Source of the DNA: Gemmata obscuriglobus
GTDB taxonomy: Bacteria; Planctomycetota; Planctomycetia; Gemmatales; Gemmataceae
NCBI RefSeq assembly: GCF_008065095.1
Contig: NZ_CP042911.1
Coordinates: 4,980,001-5,012,000 of the forward strand
Direction: 5' to 3'
DNA: 32,000 nucleotides
Below are positions 6,635-29,311 of the stretch, piece after piece. Under the pieces are notes generated by a model. It searched no databases and was not told the DNA's origin. It saw nothing but the letters and a program-made list of their open reading frames with translations. The translations under genes were made by a program, and so were the position numbers. Within the stretch, counting starts at the first letter, position 1. Each line of letters starts with the position of its first letter.

Positions 6635-7639
6635 ATGTCCAAGGTGGTTCGCGTGGCCGTGACCGGCGCGGCCGGGCGCGTTTCGAGCAGCCTCATCGTG
6701 CGCCTCGCGTCGGGCGAAGTGTTCGGCCCAGAAACGAAGGTGGTCCTCCAGTTGCTCGAGGTGCCGGCGTCGGTGAACCCGGCGGCGCTGAAGAACCTCG
6801 AAGGCGCGATGTACGAGCTCCAGGACTGCGGGTTCTCCACCCTCAAAGACGTCGTCATCACCGACGACCCGAACGTCGCGTTCAACGGGTGCAACTACGC
6901 CCTGCTCGTGGGCGCCGCCCCGCGCGGCCCCGGCGAGCAGCGCAGCGACCTGATCCGCAAGAACGGCGCGATCTTCGTGGGCCAGGGGCAGGCGATCGCG
7001 AAGAACGCGGCGTCCGACGTGCGGATCCTGGTCGTCGGCAACCCGTGCAACACGAACTGCCTCATCGCCTACAGCAACGGCCGGGACGTGCCCGCCGACC
7101 GCTGGCACGCGATGACCCGGCTCGACCACAACCGCGCGGTCTCGGCGCTCGCGATCAAGGCGGGCGTGACCAACGACGCCGTCACCTGCGTCACCATCTG
7201 GGGCAACCACTCGAACACGCAGTACCCGGACTTCACGAACGCCAAGATCGGCGGCCGGCCCGCGACCGAGGTCATCACCGACCGCGCGTGGCTCGAAAAC
7301 ACGTTCGTCCCGAACACCCAGGAGCGCGGGAAGTTCATCATCGACACCACGAAAGTGTCGTCGTCGTTCTCGGCCGCGAACGGGGCCATCGACCACGTCA
7401 AGAGCCTCGTGACCGGCACCCCGGCCGGCGACTGGACCAGCGCCGCCATCGTCTCGAAGGGCGAGTACGGCGTTCCGGCGGGCCTGGTGTTCGGATACCC
7501 CTGCACCACGAGCGGCGACGGTAACTGGAACGTGGTCGAGGGTTTGAAGCTCGACGCGTTCGGCGAAGCGAAGTTCAAGAAGACGCTCGACGAACTGCTG
7601 AAGGAGCAAGAGGTCGTGAAGGACCTGCTCCCGAGCTAA
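6635..7639 (+). CDS. mdh: malate dehydrogenase (NAD-dependent, ~334 aa type)
   Basis: VAVTGAAGRV, GAAPRGPG, VVGNPCNTN, TRLDHNRA and IWGNHS motifs of the LDH/MDH superfamily. The internal ATG at 6635 is chosen over the tracked 6551 start because the upstream 28 aa are not MDH-like. Confidence 0.92.
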   Translation: MSKVVRVAVTGAAGRVSSSLIVRLASGEVFGPETKVVLQLLEVPASVNPAALKNLEGAMYELQDCGFSTLKDVVITDDPNVAFNGCNYALLVGAAPRGPGEQRSDLIRKNGAIFVGQGQAIAKNAASDVRILVVGNPCNTNCLIAYSNGRDVPADRWHAMTRLDHNRAVSALAIKAGVTNDAVTCVTIWGNHSNTQYPDFTNAKIGGRPATEVITDRAWLENTFVPNTQERGKFIIDTTKVSSSFSAANGAIDHVKSLVTGTPAGDWTSAAIVSKGEYGVPAGLVFGYPCTTSGDGNWNVVEGLKLDAFGEAKFKKTLDELLKEQEVVKDLLPS

Positions 7640-7677: not shown

Positions 7678-8147
7678 GTTCATCCATCGGCGCGAATCGG
7701 AACGAGGGAACGCTCTCCTCTTCGCCGTTGTGCCGACGTGCCGAACGGTTGTCGGTCCGAGATGGTTCCACTGCACTTCCCCTCCGCAGCACTTCCGGAA
7801 GTCCTTGGCCCCACAACTCCCATTCATTTACCGCCCAGAACCCGGAACCACGCCCCGATCAAATTCGTCGCAAACGATTACCCAGCGAGCTGTTACTGCG
7901 ACATACACGATACCGACGTGGGCTAATGTCTCTTGACCGACCCCTCGTTTTAAAGGCTTTTGTTGGGTGATTCAGTGGTAGCGATCACCCAGCGATTCGG
8001 TAGCGAATTACCAGTCCGGCGGCGGCGAATGTCCAGTCCGTGCCCCGTCGAATGTAACCCTCGCCCCCCTGCCCTGCCCTCTCGACATTCCGGTCCGAAC
8101 GGGAAAGCAACTGATACATGAACCCACCCGCGATGTCACTTTTGTTG

Positions 8148-8208
8148 ACGAGCCGCGACCGCGAGGGAGCGGGGCCACGTATCCCGCTCCCTCGCGGTCG
8201 CGGCTCGT
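8148..8208. repeat. perfect 26-bp inverted repeat (hairpin, 9-nt loop)
   Basis: acgagccgcgaccgcgagggagcggg (8148-8173) and cccgctccctcgcggtcgcggctcgt (8183-8208) are exact reverse complements. On the plus-strand RNA the stem extends to 8141-8215 through A-U and two G-U pairs. Confidence 0.7.
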
Positions 8209-8659
8209 TAATAAAGCGTTCGTATTACCAAATACACACACAAATTTCACCGGTTTATTAGGAGCGACCTACAAGCGACGGCTACGACACGCACAACTCG
8301 TTCGTAGTCCGGATTCGCGCGGGTCGTCCGAACGTCACGGACCGCCCCCCTATCAAACTGATGGCACCGAAGGGAAAGCCATCGTGCGCACCAACCACGC
8401 CTCACGACGCAGGTGATTAGATGGGGCATTCGGCGTGCTGGCTGAACCCCACCATCCGCTCCAGTCGGCAGCGTCGGCACGGAAGCTACGCTGTGAAACA
8501 CGGAGCAACACCATGTTCCTGCGATATCTCCTCACACACGTTTAAGGTCACTCCGACGCCCCGGTATCCACGATTGAAGCACGCATTAGGTCAGTTATCC
8601 ACGCGGGACGACTTTAATCAGCCTCTCATAAATGTGGGGCATGCTGCTTGAAAACAAAA

Positions 8660-10746: not shown

Positions 10747-10910
10747 GCACAGGGCTCCCGCCCTGTGCTACGGCCGCCGGCCCCTCCGGGGCGGGAAGCA
10801 AGTTAATGGGCAAAAGGTTGCGTCTCTTTTACCTTTTGACTTTTCTCTTTTGCATTGGTTTGGCACCCCGGAGGGGTCGCCGGACGTAGCACAGGGCGGA
10901 AGCCCTGTGC
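10747..10910. repeat. MITE-like nested palindromic element (164 bp, 45-bp terminal inverted repeats)
   Basis: 10747-10791 and the reverse complement of 10866-10910 match at 41 of 45 positions. Each arm also contains its own 9-bp hairpin, gcacagggc/gccctgtgc. The 74-bp core is visibly AT-rich. Confidence 0.5.
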
Positions 10911-27548: not shown

Positions 27549-28910
27549 TCAACTCGCCGGGTACGTGTGTGCTCCGGGCCATGTGATGCGATCAAAGAGC
27601 GCCCACAACTTCCGCCCGCGCACCGGGTTCACCCCCGCAACGTATGCCACCCGGCCGGCGAGGTGCGAGCGAAAGTCCGGGTGTCCGCTTCGGTTCTGAT
27701 CGGCGGGGCCGTGCCGCACGCAGTTGGTCAGAATTGCTTTCAGCCGGTCGAACTCGGCGCGCGGCACGTTGGGCCGCTGGTTCACCACAACCCCCGTCAC
27801 GGTCTGCCGCCCGCCGCCCCCCATCACCCGGGTTTTCCCGCGGTTAAGAGCAAAGCCCTCTTCTGCGGCGATGAGCGTGACCCGTCGAACGAACCGTGCG
27901 GCGTTCCGGCGCAAGAGTTCACCGCCGGAGAACGTGAGATCATCGGCGTAGCGTGTGTACGTCGCCCCGCACGCGGCGGCGAGCCCGGCCAGTCGCCGAT
28001 CCAGCCGCAACGCGACCAAGTTTGCCAGTGCCGGAGAGGTGGGCGCGCCTTGGGGGAGGTGTCGCGATGTGAGCCGGGCACGGGTGGCGTGCTCGGAACC
28101 GTCGTTCAGCGGGTTCGGGCGTTCGTTCCAGTCGTTGGAAGCCAGGCGCGTCGTGCAGAGGCCGGACAACAGCCGCGCGACCGACTCGCGGTAGCCGAGT
28201 GCGAGGAACAGCGCGAGAACGCGCCCGACGGGCACTGACGCGAAGAAGTCGGTGAGGTCGAAGCGGATCACGATCGCGTGGCCGCAGTGCGGGGTCGCGT
28301 TGGTAACGATCGAGCGCCCCGGTCGGAACCCGTGAACGGCCGGGTGCGGTGGAACGTGGTTCAAAAGGTCCGCCAGCAGCTTTCGCTGAACCCGTTTGAG
28401 CGGCGGAACGGGGATTTCGAGCAGTCGGGCGCGCCCCTTGGGTTTCGGCACCCAGCGCACGCGATACGACCGCACGCCCTTGCTGATGGCGTTCCGCCCA
28501 GCCGGGTCCGCGAGCCAGAGCAGATGGCCGACCGGAACGCCGAGCCATTCGGCGAGCGCCGGCTCGTTGGGTAACACGGGGAGACCGCTGGCCCAGTCGG
28601 GGCGCGGGCGGGGCGGCGGTTCCGGCGGCGCAAAGATGTGCCACACGGGGAACCGATCCGCCGGATACCGTGCGGTCGCCAGCGCGGCCAGCGCACGCAC
28701 GAACCCCGGATCACGGCCAAGAAACGCGAGCAGTTCGTTGAACGTTGGCGGGGTGGCGTGTGCGGTGTGGACCCGCTTTGCGAACCGCGGCGTCCAGCCG
28801 AACCGCTTTCCCGTTGCCCGGTAGACGGAGGTGCGGAGCCCCGCGACGCTCCATTCGCCAGCCAGCAGCGCCGCCGCGAGGTTGCTCACGAATCGGTTCG
28901 CGGTCATCAC
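27549..28910 (-). CDS. retron-type reverse transcriptase with ~100-aa N-terminal extension
   Basis: RT motifs in order: KPKGRARLLEIP, HGFRPGRSIVTNATPH (NAxxH), IRFDLTDFF, LPQGAPTSPALANL, YTRYADDLTFS, LNRGKTRV and TVTGVVVN (VTG), followed by a ~85-aa C-terminal tail. There is a GTG at 28910 and an ATG at 28907. Confidence 0.9.
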   Translation of the reverse strand: MMTANRFVSNLAAALLAGEWSVAGLRTSVYRATGKRFGWTPRFAKRVHTAHATPPTFNELLAFLGRDPGFVRALAALATARYPADRFPVWHIFAPPEPPPRPRPDWASGLPVLPNEPALAEWLGVPVGHLLWLADPAGRNAISKGVRSYRVRWVPKPKGRARLLEIPVPPLKRVQRKLLADLLNHVPPHPAVHGFRPGRSIVTNATPHCGHAIVIRFDLTDFFASVPVGRVLALFLALGYRESVARLLSGLCTTRLASNDWNERPNPLNDGSEHATRARLTSRHLPQGAPTSPALANLVALRLDRRLAGLAAACGATYTRYADDLTFSGGELLRRNAARFVRRVTLIAAEEGFALNRGKTRVMGGGGRQTVTGVVVNQRPNVPRAEFDRLKAILTNCVRHGPADQNRSGHPDFRSHLAGRVAYVAGVNPVRGRKLWALFDRITWPGAHTYPAS

Positions 28911-28926
28911 GTTCGTGGTCAGAGGG

Positions 28927-29091
28927 CCGCGAGCGGGCCGACGAATCCCGTCCTGCGCGACAAGACGGGCGTGGAAGCGCCCCTACTGTCGCGCGCTCAA
29001 TCCTCAGGCATCGAACGACCCCGGGGTAGCCCCGGAGCAACAGCTCGCGCTCGTTGAGAGCGTTTCACCGTTGTGCTCGGCCCGCTCGCGG
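28927..29091 (-). ncRNA. candidate retron msr-msd non-coding RNA
   Basis: A perfect 15-bp inverted repeat (29091-29077 ccgcgagcgggccga; 28941-28927 tcggcccgctcgcgg, minus-strand reading) brackets 135 nt. An unpaired G at 29076 in an AGC context follows the 5' arm directly. There are two stem-loops in the 5' half and a hairpin in the 3' half. The 3' arm ends 16 nt before the RT start. Confidence 0.45.
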
Positions 29092-29134
29092 TGTTTGGGA
29101 TGTTGCCGTCCGGGCGGGGCGGCGGCAATCTCGG

Positions 29135-29311
29135 TTACTCCTTGTTCTCTTTTTCCGCTTCCTTCTTCACGTACTCCTTAAACGCCGCCATGTTGTAGCT
29201 GATGAACAAGAACGTGTGGTGCAGCGCCTGGTACGTCTCGTCTTCGGGATCGTCGGCGTAATCCTTCCGCAGCGCATAAAGCTTCGCGAGCAACTGGTCG
29301 GCGTTCATCAT
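29135..29311 (-). CDS. hypothetical small acidic protein (58 aa), absent from the ORF track
   Basis: ATG ATG ... TAA encodes MMNADQLLAKLYALRKDYADDPEDETYQALHHTFLFISYNMAAFKEYVKKEAEKENKE. By my count 49 of 58 codons end in G/C while overall GC is only ~52 percent, a strong coding signature for this genome. Confidence 0.55.
   Translation of the reverse strand: MMNADQLLAKLYALRKDYADDPEDETYQALHHTFLFISYNMAAFKEYVKKEAEKENKE

What the first reader, a model, noticed from the sequence alone, without database searches (positions are those of the whole stretch)
28927..29091. Candidate msr-msd: perfect 15-bp a1/a2-type inverted repeat with an AGC branching-G context
Read on the minus strand, 29091-29077 (CCGCGAGCGGGCCGA) and 28941-28927 (TCGGCCCGCUCGCGG) are exact complements 135 nt apart. 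The second arm ends 16 nt before the RT start. That is the geometry of the retron a1/a2 stem. The first unpaired base after the 5' arm is G at 29076, in the context A-G-C, where retrons place the 2'-OH priming guanosine. The 5' half folds into a compound stem-loop: CAACGG 29073-29068 pairs with CUGUUG 29043-29038, enclosing CGCUC 29062-29058 paired with GAGCG 29052-29048. An 8-bp GC hairpin follows at 29037-29019 (CUCCGGGG-CUA-CCCCGGGG). The 3' half contains a hairpin that would also form in the cDNA: gcgcgac 28955-28961 pairs with gtcgcgc 28988-28994, with an inner gggcg/cgccc stem at 28967-28971 and 28978-28982. If this is a retron, cDNA synthesis would start opposite 28942 and yield a short msDNA of several tens of nt. 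A 15-bp perfect inverted repeat within ~225 nt is unlikely by chance even at this GC content.
Basis: seen in the sequence. Interest (0 to 1): 0.8.

Follow-up and report, generated by a model that had tools for sequence, protein, structure and literature searches.

The report
Retron non-coding RNA upstream of RT
The inverted repeat is real and closes a conserved structured RNA that always sits just upstream of a retron-type reverse transcriptase, so it is very probably the template/primer RNA of an effector-less, chromosomally inherited retron in Gemmata obscuriglobus whose cellular role is unknown.

Summary
This includes the perfect 15-bp inverted repeat (29091-29077 / 28941-28927, minus strand), G29076 in an A-G-C context, and all the internal hairpins. 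The ORF 16 nt downstream (27549-28910, minus) is a retron-type reverse transcriptase (RT). It carries NAxxH, VTG and YADD motifs, and its closest solved relative is the retron Ec86 RT.

A covariance model built from this RNA finds one copy in every RT-homologous locus that has upstream sequence: all 80 genome loci and 77 of 80 metagenome loci. The copy is always on the RT strand, upstream of the RT. Two syntenic genomes without the RT also lack the RNA.

In 63 loci not used for training, 95% of pair cells are canonical, against 39-50% when the partners are slid, and 34 of 38 pairs show double changes. The proposed priming G is 97% conserved and the opposing G 99%. G-U pairs are common in a1/a2 and the msr hairpin (9-16%) but nearly absent from the msd stems (0.3-0.5%), as expected if those stems also fold as cDNA.

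No neighbouring gene is conserved, so this is a stand-alone cassette, probably the effector-less "clade 11" lineage of Mestre et al. No msDNA has been shown.

The parts
29123..29128 (-). candidate -35 element (TTGCCG) of the ncRNA promoter (inferred)
   Evidence: The TTG is invariant in 5 syntenic Gemmataceae loci, 17 nt upstream of the -10 candidate. The strict sigma-70 scan found nothing here.
29100..29105 (-). candidate -10 element (CAACAT); the predicted transcription start is about 29094-29092, right at the 5' end of a1 (inferred)
   Evidence: Conserved as CAnCAT in Gemmataceae. In 33 of 78 other loci an extended -10 (TGnTAnnnT) ends within -6..+4 of the model start, where 0.15 loci are expected.
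29077..29091 (-). a1, the 5' arm of the closing stem
   Evidence: All 16 consensus pairs of this stem show compensatory changes. 9.3% of pairs are G-U, so it pairs as RNA on this strand.
29076..29076 (-). candidate priming (branching) guanosine, context GAGC
   Evidence: G in 97% and the preceding A in 96% of 80 aligned loci. A priming G within AGC is the retron rule, and Mx65 also has GAGC (Simon 2019).
29038..29073 (-). msr stem-loop 1 (compound hairpin, variable in sequence)
   Evidence: Present in the MFE fold. The equivalent ~35-nt segment folds better than shuffles in 78% of loci, median z -2.5.
29019..29037 (-). msr stem-loop 2: nearly invariant hairpin CUCYGGGG-NUA-CCCCRGGG, the likely RT recognition element (inferred)
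   Evidence: G and C columns are invariant and the loop U and A are 97-99% conserved. Five of 9 pairs covary. 15.8% G-U pairs.
28995..29018 (-). about 24-nt unstructured linker; the cDNA 3' end (msr/msd overlap) is expected somewhere in it (inferred)
   Evidence: No structure signal: median z +0.4. Low sequence conservation.
28955..28994 (-). msd two-tier hairpin (outer 28994-28987 / 28962-28955; inner 28982-28978 / 28971-28967)
   Evidence: 12 of 13 pairs covary. G-U pairs are only 0.3-0.5%, while 3.8% of outer-stem cells are A.C, which is G.T in the cDNA. The predicted cDNA folds into the same hairpin, -16.4 kcal/mol, z -2.5.
28942..28954 (-). conserved single-stranded tail (AGGACGGGAUUCG); G28942 opposes the priming G and is the expected first template position (inferred)
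   Evidence: G28942 is 99% and G28947 100% conserved. Mestre 2020 describes 'two opposing G residues' in retron ncRNAs.
28927..28941 (-). a2, the 3' arm of the closing stem
27549..28910 (-). retron-type reverse transcriptase, 453 aa from the GTG (452 aa from ATG 28907); RT domain residues 154-363; NATPH 204-208, YADD 321-324, VTG 371-373
   Evidence: Pfam RVT_1 1e-21. PADLOC RT_other 4.6e-153, RT_outgroup 2e-144, RT_XIII 6e-100. The motif residues are invariant in 24 homologues. Closest solved structure is retron Ec86 RT: phmmer 7e-33, Foldseek 5.8e-19 with TM 0.72.
28671..28910 (-). family-specific N-terminal five-helix domain of the RT (residues 1 to about 80), function unknown
   Evidence: pLDDT above 90. 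No significant fold match in PDB or BFVD. The profile finds about 305 clusters, nearly all with the domain at the N-terminus: either ~430-490-aa proteins of RT length or short proteins, probably fragments.

Best explanation
Window 28927-29091 (minus strand) is the msr-msd non-coding RNA gene of a stand-alone retron, and the RT is the ORF immediately downstream.

Proposed mechanism:
1. A dedicated promoter (-10 at 29105-29100) starts transcription at about 29094-29092 and produces an ncRNA-RT transcript.
2. The 15-nt ends a1 and a2 pair.
3. The RT binds the nearly invariant msr hairpin (29037-29019).
4. The RT uses the 2'-OH of G29076 to prime cDNA synthesis at or next to G28942.
5. It copies the tail and the two-tier hairpin 28955-28994 and stops in the unstructured linker (28995-29018).
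6. The product is a branched RNA-linked msDNA of roughly 55-75 nt that folds into a DNA hairpin.

Shown here: the conserved, covarying RNA architecture; its strict linkage to a retron-type RT; the strand of the transcript; and a signature that the 3' hairpin is also selected as DNA.

Inferred only: the promoter and transcription start, the branch point, the cDNA start and stop, and RT recognition of the hairpin.

The cellular role is unknown. There is no conserved effector gene. The locus lies among core metabolic genes and is syntenic across Gemmataceae. A trans-acting partner, or a role for the RT's own N-terminal domain, is therefore more likely than the usual adjacent-toxin arrangement.
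For: - **Sequence and fold.**
- **RT identity.** Retron profiles are the best PADLOC matches. NAxxH, VTG and YADD residues are invariant in 24 homologues. Ec86 RT is the closest solved structure by sequence and by fold.
- **Linkage of RNA and RT.** Covariance model R1 hits the window once (28920-29098, minus strand, 110.5 bits, E 9e-18). It also hits all 80 genome loci and 77 of 80 metagenome loci, always on the RT strand upstream of the RT. The three misses (L113, L139, L154) have little or no sequence upstream of the RT. Two syntenic loci without an RT (L168, L169) have no hit.
- **Covariation, training alignment.** 94.4% of cells paired against 40-52% when slid; 33 of 38 pairs with double changes; 0 of 500 shuffles reach the observed score.
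- **Covariation, 63 loci not used for training.** 95.2% paired against 39-50% when slid; 34 of 38 pairs with double changes.
- **Conserved key bases.** Priming G 97%, opposing G 99%.
- **G-U pairs.** 9.3% in a1/a2 and 15.8% in the msr hairpin, against 0.3% and 0.5% in the msd stems. The outer msd stem instead has 3.8% A.C, which is G.T in the cDNA.
- **cDNA hairpin.**
- **Promoter.** An extended -10 is positioned at the a1 5' end in 33 of 78 loci, where 0.15 are expected.
Against: - No experimental evidence for msDNA, for the branch, or for any member of this RT lineage was found in the searched literature.
- Rfam has no matching family.
- No effector gene is present. This departs from the tripartite retron model and leaves the function open.
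- The msd hairpin (13 bp in two tiers) is short compared with the 'long stem-loop' typical of retrons.
- The promoter assignment in the window rests on weak hexamers that a strict scan does not report.
Confidence: 0.85

Rival explanations
1. It is a genuine ncRNA partner of the RT but does not behave as a classical retron. Either cDNA is made only on induction, as reported for type VI retrons, or the product is not a 2'-5' branched msDNA, as in other RT-ncRNA defence systems such as DRT2.
For: No effector gene and a non-defence genomic context. A 2025 preprint abstract states that type VI retrons are non-canonical in not producing high levels of msDNA. The DRT2 RT does appear among the structural matches, but far below the retron RTs.
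Against: The closing stem with a 97%-conserved G after a1 and a 99%-conserved opposing G is the retron priming geometry. The RT has the retron-specific NAxxH and VTG motifs and is closest to retron RTs. NCBIfam Drt2 and Drt3a matches are far below their cut-offs.
Confidence: 0.1
2. It is a cis-regulatory 5' leader (a translational or transcriptional control structure) of the RT mRNA and is never reverse transcribed.
For: It lies in the 5' untranslated region, and a2 ends 16-19 nt before the start codon.
Against: A leader RNA would tolerate G-U pairs in all its stems. Here they are depleted about 20-50-fold in the two 3' stems, which instead show A.C cells that form wobble pairs only in the complementary DNA. 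The architecture matches retron ncRNAs element by element, and the partner protein is a retron RT.
Confidence: 0.04
3. It is a chance inverted repeat or a dispersed repetitive/palindromic element unrelated to the RT.
For: The window is 66% G+C and contains other inverted repeats.
Against: Expected 0.043 times per window. There is a single model hit in the window and none elsewhere in about 1 Mb of flanking sequence, apart from weak reverse-strand echoes of the near-palindromic msd hairpin. Covariation is extensive across phyla. The element is absent where the RT is absent.
Confidence: 0.01

Closest known systems
Stand-alone (msr-msd)-RT retrons of RT clade 11, with ncRNA families clade11-A and clade11-B (Mestre et al. 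2020, PMC7736814; surveyed in the SPIRE preprint 10.64898/2026.05.14.725207)
   Same: A retron-type RT with an adjacent msr-msd and no recurrent accessory gene. The best PADLOC matches are the two un-typed retron RT profiles. The host range of my loci (Burkholderia and other Pseudomonadota, Acidobacteriota, some Actinomycetota) overlaps that reported for clade11-A. Mestre et al. suggest vertical inheritance and possible domestication for such clades.
   Different: Membership could not be tested. Neither the clade 11 reference RTs nor the A/B covariance models are available here, and the paper's supplements are not held. Mestre et al. called clade 11 'essentially restricted to Actinobacteria', whereas this locus is planctomycetal. 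The SPIRE survey lists its planctomycetal RTs under type XIII.
Type XIII retrons (RT clade 10): Retron-Mxa1 (Mx162), Retron-Mxa2 (Mx65), Sa163, Ne144
   Same: The RT domain matches the PADLOC RT_XIII profile at 6e-100. The RT has an N-terminal extension, as the myxococcal RTs do, and the priming context GAGC is the same as in Mx65. A myxobacterial genome (Pyxidicoccus, L009) carries a member of the present family.
   Different: There is no SWIM zinc-finger or HEAT/ARM accessory gene next to the RT, here or in 160 relatives. The RT_XIII alignment starts only at residue 108, so the N-terminal domain is not matched by that profile. The asparagine of NAxxH is present here but substituted in Mx65. 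From my own recollection of the original papers, not checked here, the ~135-nt interior fits neither Mx65 (~105 nt) nor Mx162 (~210 nt).
Retron-Eco1 (Ec86), the structurally best-known retron
   Same: Closest solved RT by sequence and by fold. Same overall ncRNA logic: a1/a2 stem, priming G, msr hairpins, msd hairpin.
   Different: Ec86 is a type II-A3 system with a nucleoside deoxyribosyltransferase-like effector, and its RT is about 320 aa with no N-terminal domain. The Gemmata RT shares only about 28% identity with it.

Membership tests
Retron (msr-msd ncRNA + retron RT) | RT of the retron lineage with region X (NAxxH), region Y (VTG) and a YADD catalytic core | tested here: met
   NATPH 204-208, VTG 371-373 and YADD 321-324; the motif residues are invariant in 24 homologues. 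Retron profiles and retron structures are the best matches.
Retron (msr-msd ncRNA + retron RT) | A contiguous ncRNA on the RT strand whose ends form the a1/a2 stem | tested here: met
   15-bp perfect stem. Conserved and covarying in all loci that have upstream sequence. G-U pairs fix the strand.
Retron (msr-msd ncRNA + retron RT) | A conserved priming guanosine at the inner end of a1, usually within AGC, opposed by a conserved G | tested here: met
   G29076 97%, A29077 96%, G28942 99% conserved. The rule is taken from Simon 2019 and Mestre 2020.
Retron (msr-msd ncRNA + retron RT) | One to three msr hairpins followed by a stable msd stem-loop | tested here: met
   Two msr hairpins and a two-tier msd hairpin. 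The msd stems show a DNA-pairing signature. The msd hairpin is shorter than in most retrons.
Retron (msr-msd ncRNA + retron RT) | Production of multicopy ssDNA joined to the RNA by a 2'-5' bond | not testable with these tools
   Needs nucleic-acid extraction, debranching and sequencing.
Retron (msr-msd ncRNA + retron RT) | A third component: an adjacent effector gene or an RT-fused effector domain (tripartite model) | tested here: not met
   No conserved neighbour within +-2.5-3 kb in 161 loci, small ORFs included. There is no C-terminal fusion. The N-terminal domain has no recognisable fold. This feature defines the 13 types, not the retron as such.
Type XIII retron (Mx162/Mx65 group) | A linked gene for a DEDE/winged-helix/SWIM zinc-finger protein, usually with a HEAT/ARM-repeat protein | tested here: not met
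   The neighbours are phosphoglucomutase, a 58-aa protein and a sugar transferase. The wider window holds only housekeeping genes. No such cluster appears in the relatives.
Type XIII retron (Mx162/Mx65 group) | RT belongs to clade 10 | tested here: inconclusive
   RT_XIII scores 333 bits, against 509 and 480 bits for the two un-typed retron profiles, and aligns only from residue 108. No tree was built against reference sequences.
Clade 11 stand-alone retrons (Mestre 2020) | [quoted passage not shown] | tested here: met
.
Clade 11 stand-alone retrons (Mestre 2020) | RT places within clade 11, and the ncRNA matches the clade11-A or clade11-B covariance model | not testable with these tools
   The reference RT set, tree and models are in supplements that are not held. 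Rfam has no such family.

The most novel reading that the evidence does not exclude
This is a domesticated retron lineage that works without any dedicated toxin. The msDNA hairpin is nearly invariant in sequence from Planctomycetota to Acidobacteriota and Burkholderia. That hairpin and the RT's family-specific N-terminal five-helix domain together perform a sequence-specific cellular function, or act through an unlinked conserved partner. This would explain why the cassette has been kept at one housekeeping locus throughout Gemmataceae, while RT identity fell to about 59%.
Probability: 0.3. Interest if true: 0.75.

Novelty: new member of a known kind. Interest (0 to 1): 0.5.

Why it matters
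Retrons are now understood as tripartite toxin-antitoxin-like phage defence systems. What effector-less retrons do is an open question raised by Mestre et al.. This locus gives that question a well-defined, testable case:
- a precisely delimited ncRNA with a predicted promoter, branch point and cDNA;
- a culturable host;
- evidence of long vertical inheritance among core metabolic genes;
- unusually strong sequence conservation of the reverse-transcribed hairpin.

It also provides a compact RT/ncRNA pair, with an interior of about 135 nt, from a high-G+C lineage not yet sampled for retron-based DNA production. It does not reveal a new kind of system.

Tried and rejected
- **Rfam.** Neither gathering nor permissive thresholds gave a credible match.
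- **The 58-aa ORF directly upstream (29135-29311, minus strand) as a possible small effector.** Rejected. It is a very conserved Gemmatales protein (605 relatives). It sits beside the sugar-transferase gene also in genomes that have neither the RT nor the ncRNA, and it is absent from the wider RT family. Pfam gave no hit on direct scanning.
- **Search for any conserved neighbouring gene.** ORFs of at least 70 aa within +-2.5-3 kb and ORFs of at least 30 aa within 1.2 kb gave none. The two large 'clusters' are translations of the ncRNA itself.
- **Sir2 gene downstream as an effector.** Not pursued. It is separated from the RT by the phosphoglucomutase gene and is not linked to the RT outside the close Gemmata relatives.
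- **Fold of the N-terminal domain.** No significant match in PDB or BFVD. A profile search found it essentially only at the N-terminus, in proteins of RT length or in short proteins that are probably fragments.
- **Literature.** No paper links retrons with Gemmata. Mestre 2020 supplements and the 1990 Mx65 paper are not held, so clade 11 membership and a direct comparison with Mx65 could not be done.
- **Strict sigma-70 and terminator scan.** Found nothing around the locus.

Full report
**1. Observation**

On the minus strand, 29091-29077 (CCGCGAGCGGGCCGA) and 28941-28927 (TCGGCCCGCTCGCGG) are perfect complements 135 nt apart (repeat I7). G29076 follows a1 in the context A-G-C. The arm a2 ends 16 nt before the GTG at 28910 of a 453-aa ORF. 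The database protein is 452 aa, which implies the ATG at 28907.

The only correction is that the outer msd stem has 8 pairs (28994-28987 / 28962-28955), not 7. The MFE fold of 28911-29134 contains all of them. Its energy is -118.9 kcal/mol, z = -5.35 against dinucleotide shuffles.

A perfect 15-mer inverted repeat within 300 nt is expected 0.043 times per shuffled 32-kb window.

**2. The neighbouring protein**

ORF 27549-28910 (minus strand) is a reverse transcriptase (Pfam RVT_1). Its best PADLOC profiles are two un-typed retron RT models: RT_other at 4.6e-153 and RT_outgroup at 2e-144. RT_XIII comes next at 6e-100.

No NCBIfam retron model reaches its cut-off.

The retron hallmarks NAxxH (NATPH 204-208), VTG (371-373) and YADD (321-324) are present, and their motif residues are invariant in 24 homologues.

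The closest solved protein is retron Ec86 RT, both by sequence (7e-33) and by fold (Foldseek 5.8e-19, TM 0.72, model pLDDT 85).

Residues 1 to about 80 form a confident five-helix domain. It has no significant structural match. A profile of it finds about 305 clusters. In nearly all of them it sits at the N-terminus, either of ~430-490-aa proteins of RT length or of short proteins that are probably fragments.

The host is Gemmata obscuriglobus (100% match).

**3. Comparative evidence for the RNA**

RT relatives at 41-58% identity were fetched from 80 genomes and 80 metagenome contigs. They come from Planctomycetota, Acidobacteriota, Burkholderia and Paraburkholderia, a myxobacterium, a few Actinomycetota and others.

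A naive search for the longest helix upstream of each RT already showed a pattern:
- stems of 10-20 bp;
- arms about 130-137 nt apart;
- the 3' arm ending a few nt before the RT start;
- the 5' arm ending ...CCAA and followed by GC.

An alignment of 32 such regions gave an RNAalifold consensus with four helices: a1/a2, a nearly invariant hairpin CUCYGGGG-NUA-CCCCRGGG, and a two-tier 3' hairpin.

| Measure | Observed | Control |
|---|---|---|
| Cells forming a standard pair | 94.4% | 40-52% with partners slid |
| Pairs with changes on both sides | 33 of 38 | 17-22 with partners slid; 19.9 mean in shuffles |
| Shuffles reaching the observed values | 0 of 500 | - |

Because those 32 regions were chosen for having a terminal stem, I built a covariance model and searched everything.
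- It hits the window once (28920-29098, minus strand, 110.5 bits).
- It hits all 80 genome loci and 77 of 80 metagenome loci. The three misses have little or no sequence upstream of the RT.
- Every hit is on the RT strand, upstream of the RT.

In the 63 genome loci not used for training, 95.2% of cells pair, against 39-50% when slid, and 34 of 38 pairs have double changes. That alignment was fitted to the model, which favours pairing, but the slid controls share the same alignment.

Closer Gemmataceae relatives also carry the RNA, with compensatory changes in a1/a2. Two syntenic genomes that lack the RT also lack the RNA.

**4. Anatomy and direction**

Across 80 aligned loci:

| Position | Conservation |
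|---|---|
| G29076 (after a1) | 97% |
| A29077 (preceding it) | 96% |
| G28942 (opposing G, just 5' of a2) | 99% |
| G28947 | 100% |
| Loop U29028 and A29027 | 97-99% |

This matches the published retron rules: a priming G within AGC (Simon 2019) and 'two opposing G residues' (Mestre 2020).

The segment between the G and the conserved hairpin varies in sequence but folds in 78% of loci (median z -2.5). The 24-nt linker after the conserved hairpin does not fold.

The frequency of G-U pairs differs sharply between helices:

| Helix | G-U pairs |
|---|---|
| a1/a2 | 9.3% |
| msr hairpin | 15.8% |
| msd outer stem | 0.3% |
| msd inner stem | 0.5% |

The outer msd stem instead has 3.8% A.C cells, which would be G.T wobbles in the complementary DNA.

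I read this in two ways. First, the transcript comes from the RT strand. Second, the 3' hairpin is selected to pair as cDNA as well, which marks it as msd. This is inference, but it does not depend on the retron hypothesis.

The predicted cDNA folds into that hairpin (-16.4 kcal/mol, z -2.5).

**5. Promoter**

In five syntenic Gemmataceae loci a TTGnCn-17 nt-CAnCAT element is conserved just upstream of a1. In the window the -35 is at 29128-29123 and the -10 at 29105-29100.

In 33 of 78 other loci an extended -10 (TGnTAnnnT) ends within -6..+4 of the model start, where 0.15 loci are expected. This places the transcription start at the 5' end of a1.

The strict consensus scan reports nothing in the window, so for the window itself this remains an inference.

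**6. Context and the missing effector**

All-against-all clustering of ORFs around 161 loci finds no conserved neighbour, large or small.

In the window the cassette lies among housekeeping genes. These include phosphoglycerate kinase, GAPDH, malate dehydrogenase, an AcrB-type efflux pump, FolD, a Sir2-type protein, phosphoglucomutase and a sugar transferase.

The order sugar transferase <- | 58-aa ORF -> ncRNA -> RT -> phosphoglucomutase is kept in relatives whose RT is only 59-80% identical. In the same loci the phosphoglucomutase is 76-91% identical. This indicates long vertical inheritance in Gemmataceae.

The 58-aa ORF belongs with the sugar transferase, not with the retron.

**7. Comparison with known systems**

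This is a retron by every sequence-level criterion I could test. It is not a type XIII system, because the SWIM and HEAT/ARM genes are absent and the N-terminal domain is not matched by the RT_XIII profile.

The best fit in the literature is the stand-alone lineage that Mestre et al. call clade 11. They reported two or three consensus msr-msd structures for it, and a 2026 survey uses two covariance models derived from them, A and B. That survey found clade 11 in Pseudomonadota, Actinomycetota and Acidobacteriota, without accessory modules.

I could not test this assignment because the reference data are not available here.

I found no experimental work on any member of this lineage, and no paper that connects retrons with Gemmata.

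**8. Verdict**

This is a new member of a known kind, very probably of a lineage already catalogued computationally.

Its interest lies in the absence of an effector, the housekeeping and vertically inherited context, the uncharacterised N-terminal domain, and the near-invariant reverse-transcribed hairpin.

Noticed in passing
window 29135-29311 (minus strand): A 58-aa ORF directly upstream of the ncRNA. It is extremely conserved in Gemmatales (605 relatives; the 120 listed are 78-100% identical) and carries a precomputed weak VMAP-M5 (PF19967) tag, but a direct Pfam scan gives no hit. It is paired divergently with the sugar-transferase gene, also in genomes that lack the retron. Its function is unknown.
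   Followed up: yes
window 10747-10910: A large inverted repeat (45-nt arms, 91% complementary, 74-nt A+T-rich spacer). Each arm contains its own GCACAGGGC...GCCCTGTGC hairpin. It lies between the HlyD-like and AcrB-like efflux genes and could be a mobile miniature element or a regulatory structure.
   Followed up: no
window 8141-8215: A 33-nt-arm hairpin (94% complementary, 9-nt loop) flanked by TTTGTT and AATAAA, downstream of the malate dehydrogenase gene. It looks like a bidirectional terminator.
   Followed up: no
L143:1584-3775: In this metagenome relative the RT ORF is 671 aa. It starts right after the ncRNA and carries about 240 extra, partly acidic, N-terminal residues ahead of the family's usual N-terminal domain.
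   Followed up: partly
L002:2155-2983: In a Fimbriiglobus MAG the ncRNA lies about 650 nt upstream of the RT. The gap holds an ORF (2265-2828, 187 aa) that looks protein-coding. It may be an inserted gene or a lineage-specific accessory gene.
   Followed up: partly
L162:4966-5169; also L164 (ncRNA 6869-7054, called gene from 7001): The annotated RT genes of Gemmata sp. G18 (509 aa) and of the L164 relative (476 aa) start inside the ncRNA. Their start codons are probably called too far upstream.
   Followed up: partly
L161:6714-7268 and L162:6571-8310: In two Gemmata genomes a leucine-rich-repeat protein gene is inserted between the RT and the phosphoglucomutase gene. It is absent from the window and from other relatives.
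   Followed up: no
window 29103-29128 (minus strand): A G+C-rich hairpin (UUGCCGCC...GGACGGCAA) lies between the stop codon of the 58-aa ORF and a1, overlapping the candidate promoter. It is not clearly conserved as a hairpin in relatives.
   Followed up: partly
reverse strand of the msd hairpin in several loci (for example L004:2896-2935, L050:2860-2899): The covariance model gives weak reverse-strand hits to model positions 106-144. This reflects the near-palindromic, Watson-Crick-only nature of the msd hairpin.
   Followed up: partly
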